From Trypanosoma brucei (lineage: Eukaryota), in NCBI GenBank assembly GCA_000002445.1, contig CM000207.1, positions 2,496,001 through 2,560,000 on the forward strand: a DNA stretch of 64,000 nt. Reading direction: 5' to 3'. The notes under the pieces were generated by a model, which saw only the letters and a program-made list of their open reading frames with translations, was not told the DNA's origin and searched no databases. The position numbers were made by a program, and so were the translations under genes. Of this stretch, positions 46,301-49,884 are shown piece after piece. Each line of letters begins with the position of its first letter. Positions within the stretch are counted from its first letter, which is position 1.

Positions 46301-48627
46301 TGCATTTTGTTTTCGCTACGTTGACAGACATGAAGTACTCTTTTGACCACTGTAACACAACGTTTAGGCCGCATTGCAGTGCGTGGTTGATGACATCCCT
46401 CTCTGTGTGCCTCGCAAGTAGCGTTAGGTCGTCTGCAAAGAATCCGTGCTGCAGTAACGGCACTTCTGCAAGGCGCTGGCTCAACGAGTTCATGACAATA
46501 ATGAACATGATTGGGCCAAGGACAGTTCCTTGTGGCACTCCTCGCTCAAATTTTCTGCTTCTGGAAAGCTTCTCCTTGAATCTCACTCTGCCAGTTCGGT
46601 TACTCAGAAATGATACGCACCACTTCACAATGTAGGGTGATACCTTCATTCTGTGCATTTCCCTCGCAATTTTGTCGTGGTCTACTGTATCGAATGCCTT
46701 CTCGTAGTCAACGAATACAGCACCCGTACGATATTGGTGCGTAGGGCGGCAGAGGGCAGCGCGGACGTGCAGGAGTTGTTCGAGCGTTGAGCATCCGGGG
46801 CGAAAGCCTGATTGCTGTAGCATCAGCTGGGACTCAACAGTGTCTCTAAGCCTCGCGGCAATTATGCGCTCCATGACTTTGCAGAGACAGCTCGTGAGTG
46901 TTACAGTCCTGTAAGAATCGAGGTCCTCCGCCCTTTTTCCGGCCTTCAGGATGGGGATGATAACACCAGTCTTCCATGCAGGCGGCACGACTCCCATTCG
47001 TAGGCTCTCATTGAATAGCCTCAGAACAACATTCAGCGCTGTTCTGCCGAGATGTTGTATTGCCTCGTTGTATAAGCAATCAGGTCCTGCTGCGGATCCA
47101 CTCTGTAGCAGTTTGATCGATCTCCATAGTTCAGCCATCGTGATGGGACTGAACTCACTCGCTATCGTCTTTATTGGTGCCGGTGGGTGTGAGTCGGGGT
47201 GCCTTCTTGCACGGGACGAGTACAGTTTACTGAACCTCTCAGCTTGATGGTAGTCCGTGATGGCCGCGTTATCAACCAGTACAGCCGGTGTGGTTAGTGG
47301 TCGTGGCGCATATACCTTCTTGACAATGTGCCAACTGCAGCGGTCTGACACCGCAAGTCTGGAGCATAGCGTGCTCCATCTCTTCTTTGTGGTACGGTCC
47401 AGGATCTGCTTACGCGTGGCTACCAATTTTTTACTTCTGTGGGAGGGTCCGCATCCAGCGATCTCTTCATCGATTTTCGCGAGCTCAGGTGTCCAATGTG
47501 GTGGCGTTACTCTGCAGCCACGGGGGACGGAGACATTCGTCGCAGTGCGGATGGCGGAGCTCAATTTCTGTTCCAGAGTGTTGACATTCTTCTCTCTACC
47601 AATTTTCCTGCAGAGCTCGTGAACCTTGAGACGGAAATTCCTCCAGTTAGCTTTTAGCCATGCGTACATGGGCTTTTGAAGCCGCGGGCAACTCAGTGCA
47701 TCTGTGTCGTCTCCAACGATATCGTCGAAAAATATGTTATGGTGATCGCTATCGGGAGAATACAGCGATGTCCACGTGTACACTGTGCAATTCCTTGACA
47801 GTGTCACATCAGGGGTGGACTCCTCGTGGTGGCGCGTGTACCTGGTGCACTCACCAGTGTTACATACCAGAAACTGGTTGTCAATGCACCACTGTGTGAG
47901 GGTTTCACCCTTGGTATTTGGTGGGCTCGCGCGATCCCATGCCAACGCGTGTGCGTTAGCGTCTGCACCGATGAGCTTGGCACCGTCAGTTGTCAGAAGC
48001 GTATCTAGGTCAGTTGCCGTGAAGGTGTGTTTTGGTGGGATGTATGCCGACGTGACAGTCAGCGCCGTTCCACGTGCAAGGTGAATTGTTGCATGCACTT
48101 GTTCAATGCGACCAATAACGGCCATACCGGTCTCGACTGGTAAGTCCTCCCTCACTAGTATTGATACACCACCTCCTTTGCAGTTACGAGCTATTCCATG
48201 ATGTTGGTAGTCAGCAACGCTAAAGAAAACCTCCTCTCCAGGCGTCATCCTTGTCTCGCTCAACAGACAAAAGGCGATCCGCTCATCAACAAGGGTTTTG
48301 TGGAGTGCTAATCTCTTTCCTTGAGATAGCCCGGCGCAGTTCCACTGCATCCCGCGCAACGACGGGCCGGGATTCTCTTCCACATCACCGGACAGCAGCA
48401 TCTTAGTGCGGATGATACTGCTGATGGCACGCTAGCCACGTGCCCAGGGACCGACAAATGAAAAACGGTGTCCCAGCAAGACGCTGCTGATCCCTGTGCT
48501 GTATGATGCCGTAGCCGGAGCACAGCAGTGTTCCCCATGAAAGGAACTTTGCTGGCTCTTGGCTTCCCCATATGAGACGGCGTACTGGACCCTGGCACCA
48601 CGTTGAGGTGGCCGGCATCACCAGGGA
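43367..48627 (-). mobile_element. ingi: ingi non-LTR (LINE-like) retrotransposon, near full length at about 5.26 kb, poly(A) tail at the low-coordinate end
   Basis: The 1526-aa minus-strand ORF carries AP-endonuclease-like, RT (FADD motif), RNase H (TDGS) and multiple C2H2 zinc-finger regions. The poly-T run at 43367-43376 on the plus strand is the minus-strand poly(A). The 5' terminus GATGCCGGCCACCTCAACGTGGTGCCAGGG (rc at 48591-48620) is identical to the second copy at 63526. Confidence 0.9.
43821..48401 (-). CDS. ingi polyprotein ORF (1526 aa, uninterrupted): 2A-like peptide, APE, reverse transcriptase, RNase H, C2H2 zinc fingers
   Basis: A true ATG (plus-strand cat at 48399-48401) gives MLLSGDVEENPGPSLRGMQWNCAGLSQGKRLALHKTLVDERIAFCLLSETRM..., with GFFADDLTLLARH (RT), WTDGSVSLGEKSGAVAL (RNase H), and CTICASKFAVPGRLLHHLRTIH with further C2H2 units. 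The 115-aa upstream ORF 48308-48655 overlaps in another frame, indicating one frameshift near the 5' end. Confidence 0.9.
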   Translation of the reverse strand: MLLSGDVEENPGPSLRGMQWNCAGLSQGKRLALHKTLVDERIAFCLLSETRMTPGEEVFFSVADYQHHGIARNCKGGGVSILVREDLPVETGMAVIGRIEQVHATIHLARGTALTVTSAYIPPKHTFTATDLDTLLTTDGAKLIGADANAHALAWDRASPPNTKGETLTQWCIDNQFLVCNTGECTRYTRHHEESTPDVTLSRNCTVYTWTSLYSPDSDHHNIFFDDIVGDDTDALSCPRLQKPMYAWLKANWRNFRLKVHELCRKIGREKNVNTLEQKLSSAIRTATNVSVPRGCRVTPPHWTPELAKIDEEIAGCGPSHRSKKLVATRKQILDRTTKKRWSTLCSRLAVSDRCSWHIVKKVYAPRPLTTPAVLVDNAAITDYHQAERFSKLYSSRARRHPDSHPPAPIKTIASEFSPITMAELWRSIKLLQSGSAAGPDCLYNEAIQHLGRTALNVVLRLFNESLRMGVVPPAWKTGVIIPILKAGKRAEDLDSYRTVTLTSCLCKVMERIIAARLRDTVESQLMLQQSGFRPGCSTLEQLLHVRAALCRPTHQYRTGAVFVDYEKAFDTVDHDKIAREMHRMKVSPYIVKWCVSFLSNRTGRVRFKEKLSRSRKFERGVPQGTVLGPIMFIIVMNSLSQRLAEVPLLQHGFFADDLTLLARHTERDVINHALQCGLNVVLQWSKEYFMSVNVAKTKCTLFGCIERHPLTLQLDGERIGADRTPKLLGVTFQCLQGMATHAAETRRKMDFRLLQIVSISASTWGPRRQVLRAFYLALVQAHTMYGIEVWYWDASERSRDLLSAAQHKASRIIAGIPHGTRKEDSMLEANLLPLKMATLVRSMKFMLMCESRGGCLRRSAEEVYHSKHPVRVLHSRIMRSYPHLRIEPREHPLEKSTLRHSCRPLFHTQIKPVCADDPDDVKREASEKWIERHFSRRGKELPRREHYELWTDGSVSLGEKSGAVALLYRNNTLICAPKTGAGELSCSYRAECVALEIGLQRLLKWLPAYRTTPSRLSIFSDSLSMLTALQTGPLAVTDPILRRLWRLLLQVQRRKVRIRLQFVFGHCGVKRNEVCDEMAKKAVALPQLRDTWIPDIIAYAKRVLRSEEVHENTHRFGITGNHFPTKHKEELTREEETALARFRVGSSRHYGWMLRKINPSVPPQCRWCNPQHAAIGPTIQTAPPVATRTLQRTSEPTKCTECDATYQCRSSAVTHMVNKHGFVRADALRRIKYGDATPAVDIPPEPPPVVPIVPLPSSTRVPMRPQVLHCTICASKFAVPGRLLHHLRTIHGIGSGSCRVKRGRENEDSVQGDGRAPAAPVSQDTRKLPFQCDLCEASFGTRSSLSLHKKFKHKSIVTEDGTVVVVQFPRKRAREENVDATGKGEVQCGVCQKVLSCRDSLIRHCKAFHKGEGVELKCSKSTKLCATDSPHTNTSMLVCPTCGRQCASKTGLTLHQKKMHGMKVERAVTSQPDDFEETSLHLMSCPCLKELRVRFAVEGECVCKMYVFLKGWRSFSLRLNGTCRR

Positions 48628-49671
48628 CTACAATATACAAACAACGACAACACATTACCTCGATCTCGACATAAACGAAAATGGCTTCACCAAACTAGGC
48701 AGTGGAGTGGCAGGCAGCGGGGACGTTGGCTGCAACCAATGCGGCGTCTTTAAAGTACACAACGGCACCGACGGCCAAACAGCGGGACTCAATGTTGGCA
48801 CCAACAGCGTTAAGGTACAACTAGCACACGGCCTCATCGAAGGCAAAAACAACGATCACTGGAACGCCCGGAGTTCTCAAATAATTTCTGCAAAGGAAAA
48901 AGCACGACACTGATTATTTAGGCCGAACGCACAGGGCCCTAATCAACCTGAAGAAATTGGAAATAGCGCGCCTCCCAGAAATTTTTGCAGAAATGCTTAA
49001 GGTTTTAGCATAAGAGACCACAGTAGAAGGCGCCCCGAGGATTGAGAAATGTGCGCTGACGCAAAGCAAGAAGATAACACCAACAGTCCCACCAAAAACG
49101 CCGATCACAGAAAATATTTTGGCAAGGACAAATCCAAAATCACGGCGCTGCGAAACACTTTAATGAAAGAGAAGATAGAAGGAACAGAGGATGACACGAC
49201 AAAGAAAGTAGCGCTAGAAAAAGTCGACTCCACGGACAAGCTGCAAAAGGCATTGGAGTTTAACACAGCACTAAATACTTACAAAGTAGAAAAGTTAAAA
49301 AAGAAATAGGTAAGTTGCAGACAGAATAAGAGGCAAAAAACAAAGCAAGCACGAAAGTTACTGAAACAAACGCAACTTGCGAAAATAAAGGAACAGGAAA
49401 AGGCTGAAAAAACCCATGCAAATTGGTTGAAGAAGGAGGTGTGGAAAAGAAGTGCAAATTAAACCCGGAGGAAGTGAAAAAGCAAGCAAACCAACAAGCA
49501 AAAGATGAGAATGCTGGGGAAAAACGCTCAAAACATGAAAGCGAAAAAAATGCTTGTGACAAAGACACCAGATGAAAATAGGAGGAAAACAAGTGCAAAG
49601 ATTCCAGCTTCCACGTCAATAAGAAATTCGCTCTGATTGTTCCTGCTTTAATAAATGTATTAATATTTTAG
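48628..49671 (+). pseudogene. VSG: 5'-truncated VSG fragment (mid N-domain to GPI signal) abutting the 5' end of the minus-strand ingi
   Basis: ...LDLDINENGFTKLGSGVAGSGDVGCNQCGVFKVHNGTDGQTAGLNVGTNSVKVQ..., then ORF 49049-49309, then C-terminus ...KPCKLVEEGGVEKKCKLNPEE...NACDKDT..KCKDSSFHVNKKFALIVPALINVLIF-stop. A 16-mer-like TGATATATTCTAACG lies at 49726-49740. Confidence 0.65.
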
Positions 49672-49884
49672 AGCTTCAAATATTTTTTGCTCAATTTGAG
49701 AGAACTTTCTAAAATTTAAAACATTTGATATATTCTAACGATTTTCGATGAACAGTGAAAATTAGTAAAAACCATATGAAATGCGCATGATAGTGGTCTA
49801 TGCGTATAAAGTAGCGGGGTGATAGATTAGGAAATATGAGTGATACTTTAATTTTCTAAAAACGCTCATTAGTTTCTTTTATAA

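What the first reader, a model, noticed from the sequence alone, without database searches (positions are those of the whole stretch)
48580..49700. Minus-strand ingi 5' end abuts a VSG lacking its own 5' half
Immediately beyond the ingi 5' terminus (48627), + strand sequence enters a VSG mid N-domain with no signal peptide or start. The 3' flank of the ingi (43360 and leftwards) is ordinary post-70-bp upstream sequence rather than VSG. This is not a clean insertion within one VSG. It implies deletion or recombination at the element, and no target-site duplication is apparent by eye.
Basis: seen in the sequence. Interest (0 to 1): 0.55.

Follow-up and report, generated by a model that had tools for sequence, protein, structure and literature searches.

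The report
Ingi retrotransposon with mismatched flanks truncating VSG
A full-length ingi retrotransposon in a Trypanosoma brucei TREU927 surface-antigen (VSG) gene array has a beheaded VSG pseudogene on one side and unrelated spacer DNA on the other, most likely because two ingi-type elements recombined; this is real but ordinary for these arrays.

Summary
A 5,247-bp ingi plus A9 tail lies on the minus strand (43371-48626). Its 5' end abuts a VSG remnant (48627-49671) that starts at codon 166 of its closest relative, the 487-aa T. evansi RoTat 1.2 VSG. About 495 bp of coding sequence, including the start codon and signal peptide, is missing. The remnant also has 5 frameshifts and 3 in-frame stops.

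The other flank (42818-43370) is ordinary spacer that follows a 70-bp repeat. It aligns in the same order with 8 other cassettes in the window. There is no 12-bp target-site duplication: the best match near the junctions is 5/12, which is chance level.

New here: the 34 nt next to the ingi 5' end match the published Tbingi target signature 8/10 in the exact register (background 0.0008). That junction is therefore an original endonuclease-made insertion into the VSG, and the poly(A) side is the flank that was exchanged or lost.

The best reading is homologous recombination with a second ingi or RIME. At least ~1.2 kb is missing. Rivals not excluded are a microhomology deletion from the poly(A) tail, a single insertion that deleted target DNA, and a mis-assembly inside the repeat. 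This is a known kind of event in an already annotated reference genome, so interest is low.

The parts
42757..42817 (+). 70-bp repeat that opens the cassette containing the ingi
   Evidence: nhmmer with a model built from the window's own 70-bp repeats gives E=7.4e-13. It also gives blastn hits to the other 70-bp repeats in the window.
42818..43370 (+). Spacer downstream of the 70-bp repeat, non-coding. This is the flank on the ingi poly(A) side.
   Evidence: 42824-43141 aligns at matching offsets (60-66% identity) with the same region of 8 other cassettes. There are stops in all frames and no VSG similarity. GC content is 38%, against 52% for the ingi.
43360..43371 (-). Candidate 3' target half-site ATCTGCTGAACT. 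It would be the 3' duplication copy of a different insertion event if the last A of the tail is counted.
   Evidence: It fits the duplicated part of the published Tbingi signature (xTxTxxTxxxxx) at 3/3 positions in one register only. This is weak: the background is 0.055 per position in spacers. It matches the 5' half-site at only 1-4 of 12 positions.
43371..43379 (-). Ingi poly(A) tail, A9
   Evidence: Read directly from the sequence.
43380..48626 (-). Full-length ingi non-LTR retrotransposon, 5,247 bp
   Evidence: Its 5' end is shared to the nucleotide with the second copy at 63519. The ORF 43821-48401 (1,526 aa) carries Exo_endo_phos, RVT_1, RNase_H and zf-C2H2 hits. It ends in ...AAATTCC(A)9.
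48627..48660 (-). Original ingi target site: a 22-nt upstream recognition pattern plus the 12-nt 5' duplication copy GTATATTGTAGT (48627-48638)
   Evidence: It matches AxxxxxxxTxxxGTxGGxTxxx^xTxTxxTxxxxx (PMC3820030, section 3.3) at 8/10 positions in the exact register. Neighbouring registers score 6 or less. The background P(>=8) is 0.0008. The second ingi also scores 8/10, with a 2-nt offset.
48627..49671 (+). 5'-truncated, decayed A-type VSG pseudogene: N-domain from about residue 166, the C-terminal domain and the GPI signal
   Evidence: Closest relative is RoTat 1.2 VSG (P0002) at 56% amino-acid identity. It has 5 frameshifts and 3 in-frame stops, and 165 codons are missing at the 5' end.
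49726..49741 (+). Degenerate VSG 3'-UTR 16-mer (TGATATATTCTAACGA, 3 mismatches)
49915..50041 (+). Degenerate 70-bp repeats that open the next cassette
   Evidence: nhmmer E=0.16 and E=1.1e-5.

Best explanation
An ingi inserted by normal target-primed reverse transcription, antisense, into the N-domain coding region of an A-type VSG in a subtelomeric array. This step created the junction at 48626/48627.

Later the element recombined by homology with a second ingi or RIME lying in the same orientation. That second element had inserted about 550 bp downstream of a 70-bp repeat, either in the same cassette or in a cassette further upstream. The recombination could have been unequal exchange, single-strand annealing or gene conversion.

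The product is one intact-looking chimeric ingi. It keeps the 5' flank of the first insertion and the 3' flank of the second. The VSG 5' third (165 codons), the matching 12-bp duplication copy, and at least 0.7 kb of spacer were lost. Whole cassettes may also have been lost.

Shown: the element ends are precise; there is no target-site duplication; the 5' flank is an authentic target site; the VSG is truncated at codon 166; the other flank is ordinary spacer; the cassette is short.

Inferred: that a second element existed, and that homologous recombination rather than another deletion route joined the flanks.
For: - Both element ends are exact. The 5' end is identical in position to the second copy, and the 3' end is ...AAATTCC + A9.
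- There is no 12-bp duplication, although ingi-clade elements are reported to make a constant 12-bp duplication (PMC3820030).
- The 5' flank matches the Tbingi target signature 8/10 in the exact register, background 0.0008. VSG homology runs right up to the junction. That junction is therefore original.
- The 3' flank fits the duplicated part of the signature 3/3 in one register. This is what a second, independent insertion would leave.
- The ingi ORF is open over 1,526 aa, and the 5' 482 bp are 97.7% identical to the other copy. Decay of a once-matching duplication is therefore implausible.
- Without the ingi the cassette measures 1,653 bp, against 2.6-4.7 kb for nine others. The 70-bp-repeat-to-ATG distance in intact cassettes is 1,266-3,040 bp, while only 553 bp of spacer is retained here.
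- The literature states that ingi and RIME recombine and cause rearrangements in T. brucei (PMC2854126). It places ingi within VSG arrays (PMC3553974). It also records an ingi just downstream of a 70-bp repeat in expression site BES2 (PMC2567434).
Against: - No partner element, reciprocal product or pre-recombination allele could be examined. The lookup tools held no T. brucei genomic DNA.
- The 3' half-site evidence is weak. The chance frequency is about 0.055 per register and two registers are plausible.
- No internal chimeric breakpoint can be shown with only 482 bp of a second copy available.
- The model needs a second element inserted in the same orientation.
- The only other ingi in the window is inverted, and its 5' duplication does not match (4/12).
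Confidence: 0.55

Rival explanations
1. Post-insertion deletion anchored in the poly(A) tail. The ingi inserted cleanly into the VSG. A later break was then repaired by microhomology-mediated end joining, or by replication slippage, between the element's T-run (on the + strand) and a T-run in the upstream spacer. This removed part of the tail, the 3' duplication copy, the VSG 5' third and spacer DNA.
For: - The tail is short (A9) and the deletion edge coincides with it.
- T-runs of 6-8 nt occur 1-5 times per spacer in the window's other cassettes, so partners are available.
- T. brucei is known to use microhomology end joining (my own knowledge).
- This model needs no second element.
Against: - One breakpoint must fall exactly in a 9-nt tract.
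- The 3' flank fits the duplicated part of the target signature 3/3 in one register. Under this model that is a coincidence with probability about 0.05-0.11.
Confidence: 0.15
2. A single retrotransposition event that deleted target DNA. Reverse transcription was primed at a nick in the spacer (site ATCTGCTGAACT). The 5' end of the copy was then joined at a second endonuclease cut in the VSG, 1.2 kb or more away, and the DNA in between was lost. This resembles the L1 insertions with large target-site deletions seen in human cells.
For: - Both ends are precise, there is no duplication, and both flanks are compatible with endonuclease sites.
- Insertion-coupled deletions are documented for L1 (my own knowledge).
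Against: - In the usual deletion model the second cut lies at an arbitrary place. Here the 5' flank carries the complete signature plus 12 nt in the exact register of a normal insertion, which is best explained by a complete normal event at that site.
- No such event has been reported for ingi in the papers I could read.
Confidence: 0.12
3. Assembly artefact. Two different ingi copies (5.2 kb, nearly identical, longer than Sanger reads) were joined inside the repeat, so the two flanks are not adjacent in the real chromosome.
For: - The window is from the TREU927 reference. The VSG at 53081-54598 is 100% identical to XP_827742.1 on a 3,057,547-bp record.
- Subtelomeric arrays and 5-kb repeats are prone to mis-assembly (PMC2854126 notes that such regions are hard to resolve).
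Against: - The join keeps the regular cassette order and orientation: one 70-bp repeat, one VSG 3' end, and the next 70-bp repeat.
- The element length (5,247 bp) and its ORF are intact across any putative join.
- The only other ingi in the window is inverted, and its duplication does not pair with this one.
Confidence: 0.08
4. A clean insertion whose target-site duplication has simply decayed, or a 3' transduction that hides the true end of the inserted unit.
For: None beyond the general fact that old elements lose their duplications.
Against: - The flanks are not two halves of one VSG. The left flank is spacer aligned with other cassettes starting right at the 70-bp repeat.
- No match to P0002 residues 1-165 exists anywhere in the window.
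- The duplication sequence GTATATTGTAGT, allowing up to 2 mismatches, is not found next to an A-run anywhere in the window.
- The ingi itself is young (open ORF; 97.7% identical to the other copy).
Confidence: 0.02

Closest known systems
Canonical Tbingi/TbRIME insertion (ingi4 subclade), described by Bringaud et al. 2004 and summarised in PMC3820030
   Same: Full-length 5.25-kb element with the conserved 5' terminus. It has a long endonuclease/RT/RNase H/zinc-finger ORF and a poly(A) tail. The upstream target signature AxxxxxxxTxxxGTxGGxTxxx^xTxTxxTxxxxx is present in register (8/10).
   Different: The constant 12-bp target-site duplication is absent. The sequence after the poly(A) is unrelated to the 12 nt before the element.
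Rearrangements mediated by recombination between ingi/RIME copies in T. brucei, such as the T. b. brucei versus T. b. gambiense indels at ingi/RIME (PMC2854126), and chimeric RHS pseudogenes at ingi/RIME insertion sites (Bringaud 2002, summarised in PMC7563717)
   Same: A retroelement with intact ends sits between flanks that were not originally contiguous, in a subtelomeric multigene family that recombines often.
   Different: Here the host gene is a VSG cassette rather than an RHS gene or a core-chromosome locus. No comparison allele was available, so recombination is inferred and not shown.
Recombination-mediated deletions between Alu or L1 copies, and L1 insertions with target-site deletion, in primates (my own knowledge)
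   Same: They share the same diagnostic footprint: one element with precise ends, no matching duplication, and host DNA lost.
   Different: The element family and host are different. In primates the ancestral state is read from an outgroup genome, which could not be done here.
VSG pseudogene fragments in T. brucei silent arrays, and the ingi located 3' of the 70-bp repeat in Lister 427 expression site BES2 (PMC2567434)
   Same: A truncated, frameshifted VSG in a 70-bp-repeat cassette, with an ingi lying between the 70-bp repeat and the VSG.
   Different: Here the truncation point coincides exactly with the ingi 5' end, and that point is an endonuclease target site.

Membership tests
Tbingi (ingi4 subclade non-LTR retrotransposon) | Conserved 5' terminal signature starting CCCTGG... 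| tested here: met
   There is an exact 20-mer at 48607-48626. Homology with the second copy starts at element nucleotide 1. That the 77-79-nt signature is conserved rests on PMC3820030 and my own knowledge.
Tbingi (ingi4 subclade non-LTR retrotransposon) | Length of about 5.25 kb with one long ORF encoding an APE-type endonuclease, RT, RNase H and a zinc finger | tested here: met
   The element is 5,247 bp. The ORF is 1,526 aa with hits to PF03372/PF14529, PF00078, PF00075 and PF13894.
Tbingi (ingi4 subclade non-LTR retrotransposon) | 3' poly(A) tail | tested here: met
   A9 at 43371-43379.
Tbingi (ingi4 subclade non-LTR retrotransposon) | 12-bp target-site duplication flanking the element | tested here: not met
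   The best near-junction match is 5/12, reached by 397 of 500 shuffles. This marks a rearranged copy. It does not argue against the element being an ingi.
Tbingi (ingi4 subclade non-LTR retrotransposon) | Conserved target pattern upstream of the element | tested here: met
   8/10 in the exact register, background 0.0008. The pattern is taken from PMC3820030 section 3.3.
A-type variant surface glycoprotein gene | A-type N-terminal domain | tested here: inconclusive
   Only the distal ~55% is present. It aligns to ILTat 1.24 residues 157-355 and to RoTat 1.2 residues 166-384. Pfam PF00913 itself did not score on the stitched fragment.
A-type variant surface glycoprotein gene | Start codon and signal peptide | tested here: not met
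   The remnant starts at the codon equivalent to RoTat 1.2 Tyr166. No match to residues 1-165 exists in the window.
A-type variant surface glycoprotein gene | C-terminal domain, GPI signal and 3'-UTR 16-mer | tested here: met
   PF10659 scores E=9.7e-10. The hydrophobic tail ...FALIVPALINVLIF* is present. The 16-mer has 3 mismatches.
A-type variant surface glycoprotein gene | Uninterrupted reading frame | tested here: not met
   There are 5 frameshifts and 3 in-frame stops, so this is a pseudogene.
Recombination-mediated rearrangement between two retroelement copies | One element with intact ends and non-matching flanking target sites | tested here: met
Recombination-mediated rearrangement between two retroelement copies | Each flank is an authentic, independent insertion site | tested here: inconclusive
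   For the 5' flank the answer is yes (8/10, P~0.001). For the 3' flank only the 12-nt part is testable: it scores 3/3 in one register, with a chance probability of about 0.05-0.11.
Recombination-mediated rearrangement between two retroelement copies | An ancestral or reciprocal allele with two elements, or a chimeric breakpoint inside the element | not testable with these tools
   No T. brucei genomic DNA could be fetched. Only 482 bp of a second ingi lies in the window.

The most novel reading that the evidence does not exclude
The structure was made in a single step. One ingi retrotransposition event bridged two endonuclease cuts more than 1 kb apart and deleted the DNA in between. This would be the first indication that ingi-clade elements directly delete VSG-array DNA, rather than only providing homology for later recombination. 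A related reading is that ingi copies serve as alternative recombination boundaries, in place of 70-bp repeats, that move or create 5'-truncated VSG segments usable as donors for mosaic VSGs.
Probability: 0.1. Interest if true: 0.45.

Novelty: already known. Interest (0 to 1): 0.2.

Why it matters
It matters only modestly. The locus is a worked example of how retrotransposons erode and reshuffle the silent VSG archive. The target signature next to the 5' end also gives a practical way to tell which junction of a rearranged ingi is original.

A side result: the damaged gene is the TREU927 relative of the T. evansi diagnostic antigen RoTat 1.2, and only the part 3' of codon 166 survives. This agrees with published reports that no close homologue of the RoTat 1.2 5' region exists in TREU927 (PMC4288722). 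None of this changes current understanding of ingi or of VSG arrays.

Tried and rejected
- **Exact-protein lookups of genomic context.** I tried two intact neighbouring VSGs, the ingi ORF, and the TREU927 proteins P0019 and P0030. None was on record, so no other allele or strain could be compared.
- **Word-indexed homologue search.** A search with the stitched N-domain fragment found nothing. The exhaustive search then found the RoTat 1.2 VSG, so the first negative was a sensitivity limit. RoTat 1.2 has no contig on record, so its upstream region could not be aligned to the left flank.
- **DNA alignment of the flanks to other cassettes in the window.** Only the 70-bp repeat, the first ~340 bp of spacer and C-terminal/3'-UTR blocks are shared. 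43142-43370 matches nothing.
- **Inversion between the two head-to-head ingis (48626 and 63519).** The 5' duplication of the second element (ATAAATTTCGCA) matches the 3' half-site of the first at only 4/12 positions, so this is not supported. The complementary test needs sequence about 4.8 kb beyond the window end.
- **3' transduction or a displaced duplication copy.** GTATATTGTAGT, allowing up to 2 mismatches, is not next to an A-run anywhere in the window.
- **The VSG 5' fragment at 63519 as the missing half.** It covers only about the first 80 residues, it shows no similarity to RoTat 1.2 residues 1-165, and it abuts an ingi 5' end rather than a 3' end.
- **Rfam scan of the ingi 5' end for an HDV-like ribozyme family.** No match.
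- **Primary papers on the Tbingi target site and RHS insertions.** They are not held in the library. The signature was taken from PMC3820030 instead.

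
Full report
**Setting.** The window is a Trypanosoma brucei subtelomeric VSG array read on the + strand. Thirteen 70-bp-repeat sites and a matching series of VSG 3'-UTR 16-mers mark cassettes of 2.6-4.7 kb. ORFs carry VSG_B, Trypan_glycop and Trypan_glycop_C domains. The VSG at 53081-54598 is 100% identical to XP_827742.1/EAN77412.1 of T. b. brucei TREU927, on a 3,057,547-bp record. The window therefore comes from the reference genome.

**The element.** A full-length ingi lies on the minus strand.
- Its 5' terminus (CCCTGGTGATGCCGGCCACC...) ends at 48626.
- A second ingi on the + strand starts its homology at exactly that nucleotide (element 1-482 = 63519-64000, 97.7% identity). 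This fixes the boundary independently of any consensus.
- The 3' end is ...AAATTCC at 43380, followed by A9 (43371-43379).
- The body is 5,247 bp with a 1,526-aa ORF (43821-48401). The ORF has endonuclease, reverse transcriptase, RNase H and C2H2 zinc-finger hits.

**The right flank.** From 48627 the + strand encodes a VSG that starts in the middle of its N-domain.
- A stitched translation matches ILTat 1.24 (PDB 2vsg) residues 157-355, E=1.2e-9. It also has a VSG C-terminal domain, E=9.7e-10.
- An exhaustive search with the first 94 codons found a 487-aa T. evansi VSG, P0002 (AAK49461.1).
- The published RoTat 1.2 PCR primers map to nt 608 and 793-812 of the P0002 coding sequence, exactly the 608-812 region given by Claes et al. 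(PMC521498). P0002 is therefore RoTat 1.2.
- A frameshift-aware alignment puts the first full codon after the ingi (48629) at RoTat 1.2 Tyr166. Identity is 56% over 319 aligned residues, with 5 frameshifts and 3 in-frame stops. VSG homology runs right up to the junction.
- The remnant ends with a GPI-signal-like tail and a stop at 49669-49671, followed by a degenerate 16-mer at 49726.
- So 165 codons (495 bp), including the start codon and signal peptide, are missing. No match to RoTat 1.2 residues 1-165 exists anywhere in the window.

**The left flank.** A 70-bp repeat lies at 42757-42817. The following 553 bp run up to the poly(A) end of the ingi.
- 42824-43141 aligns at matching offsets (60-66% identity) with the first ~340 bp after the 70-bp repeat in 8 other cassettes.
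- All three frames are closed, and there is no VSG similarity.
- In intact cassettes of this window the distance from the 70-bp repeat to the VSG ATG is 1,266, 1,699, 2,521 and 3,040 bp.
- Without the ingi, this cassette measures 1,653 bp from repeat to 16-mer, against 2.6-4.7 kb for nine others.
- If the two flanks once belonged to one cassette, at least ~0.7 kb of spacer plus 0.5 kb of VSG is missing. If the recombination partner was further away, the loss has no upper bound.

**Target-site duplication.** Ingi-clade elements are reported to make a constant 12-bp duplication (PMC3820030).
- On the element's strand, the 12 nt before the element are GTATATTGTAGT. The 12 nt after the tail are TCTGCTGAACTA, or ATCTGCTGAACT if the last A is counted.
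- The best near-junction match is 5/12, reached by 397 of 500 shuffles. The best match anywhere within 25 nt is 7/12, reached by 493 of 500 shuffles.
- The element is young: its ORF is open and it is 97.7% identical to the other copy. Decay of a once-perfect duplication is therefore not credible.

**Which junction is original?** PMC3820030 gives the Tbingi (ingi4) target signature as 5'-AxxxxxxxTxxxGTxGGxTxxx^xTxTxxTxxxxx-3', ending at the element.
- The 34 nt next to the 5' end (48627-48660, read on the minus strand) match 8 of the 10 specified positions in the exact register. All neighbouring registers score 6 or less. Only 0.08% of positions in the window score 8 or more.
- The second ingi gives the same score with two extra nucleotides at its junction. 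This serves as an internal check of the signature.
- The 48626/48627 junction is therefore a normal endonuclease-made insertion into the VSG, antisense to it. The expected partner, poly(A) followed by GTATATTGTAGT and the VSG 5' third, has been replaced.
- The actual 3' flank fits the duplicated part of the signature (3/3) in one register. That pattern occurs at 5.5% of spacer positions, so this is only a hint.

**Mechanism.** I rank the explanations as follows.
1. *Homologous recombination with a second ingi or RIME in the same orientation, about 0.55.* The second element sat 550 bp downstream of a 70-bp repeat. The product is a chimeric but intact element with two unrelated half-sites, and the DNA in between is lost. 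The literature says ingi/RIME copies recombine and cause rearrangements (PMC2854126). It also says ingi occur within VSG arrays (PMC3553974) and that an ingi sits just 3' of the 70-bp repeat in BES2 (PMC2567434).
2. *Microhomology or slippage deletion anchored in the poly(A)/T-run, about 0.15.* T-runs of 6-8 nt are common in the spacers.
3. *A single insertion that bridged two cuts and deleted the target DNA, about 0.12.* The full in-register signature at the 5' flank argues against the usual form of this model.
4. *A mis-join inside the 5-kb repeat during assembly, about 0.08.*
5. *A clean insertion with a decayed duplication, or a 3' transduction.* This is rejected.

I also tested an inversion between the two head-to-head ingis. 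It is not supported by the one duplication pair available (4/12 match). The other pair lies beyond the window.

**Comparison with what is known, and verdict.** Every component is a known kind: a Tbingi, a 70-bp-repeat VSG cassette, a VSG pseudogene fragment, and a retroelement lacking its duplication after rearrangement. The locus sits in an annotated reference genome. The additions here are the measurement of what is missing, the identification of the original junction from the target signature, and the RoTat 1.2 relationship. Interest is low (0.2). The main limit of this analysis is that no other T. brucei genomic DNA could be retrieved, so the choice among the deletion routes rests on inference.

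Noticed in passing
window 63202-64000: A second ingi on the + strand, cut off by the window end, starts at 63519 directly after a VSG 5' fragment. That fragment has a signal peptide plus about 60 residues (...LITAIFAYGTVTKGKNAEDFAALCGLVQFAK...) and a frameshift near its start. Its flank matches the Tbingi target signature 8/10, with two extra nucleotides (TT) at the junction. Both ingis in this window therefore sit inside A-type VSG N-domain coding sequence.
   Followed up: partly
window 43371-48626 and 63519-64000: The two ingis lie head to head (5' ends facing each other) and bracket 14.9 kb holding about three VSG cassettes. This arrangement could invert by recombination or give convergent transcripts. 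Testing an inversion with one duplication pair gave 4/12, so it is not supported. The second pair lies beyond the window end.
   Followed up: partly
window 48627-49570: The closest known protein to the truncated pseudogene is the T. evansi diagnostic antigen RoTat 1.2 VSG (AAK49461.1) at 56% amino-acid identity. The remnant covers the RoTat 1.2 PCR target (nt 608-812), but the primer sites have 6/20 and 5/20 mismatches (48741 and 48924). PMC4288722 reports no close homologue of the RoTat 1.2 5' region in TREU927, and in this relative that region is exactly the part that is missing.
   Followed up: partly
window 42700-42817: The VSG pseudogene to the left ends at about 42725. No recognisable 3'-UTR 16-mer follows, and the next 70-bp repeat starts only about 30 nt after the stop codon. 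In other cassettes that distance is about 150-250 nt.
   Followed up: no
window 8035-8460: There are VSG C-terminal-domain and 16-mer matches on the minus strand (tblastn at 8458-8342; 16-mer at 8035). This is a VSG relic in the opposite orientation to the rest of the array.
   Followed up: no
whole window: Sites scoring 8/10 or more for the Tbingi target signature are unevenly distributed between strands, with about 75 of 105 on the minus strand. Potential ingi targets are thus more often antisense to the VSG array direction. This probably reflects base composition.
   Followed up: no
window 48572-48913: A mechanical 113-aa ORF starts at an ATG inside the ingi 5' end (antisense strand of the element) and reads straight into the VSG frame across the junction. 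There is no evidence that it is expressed.
   Followed up: no
window 53081-54598: This intact 'atypical' VSG has no Pfam N-domain hit. It is identical to TREU927 XP_827742.1 and falls in the same 90% cluster as Lister 427 'VSG 463' (AGH61029.1), so it is shared between strains.
   Followed up: no
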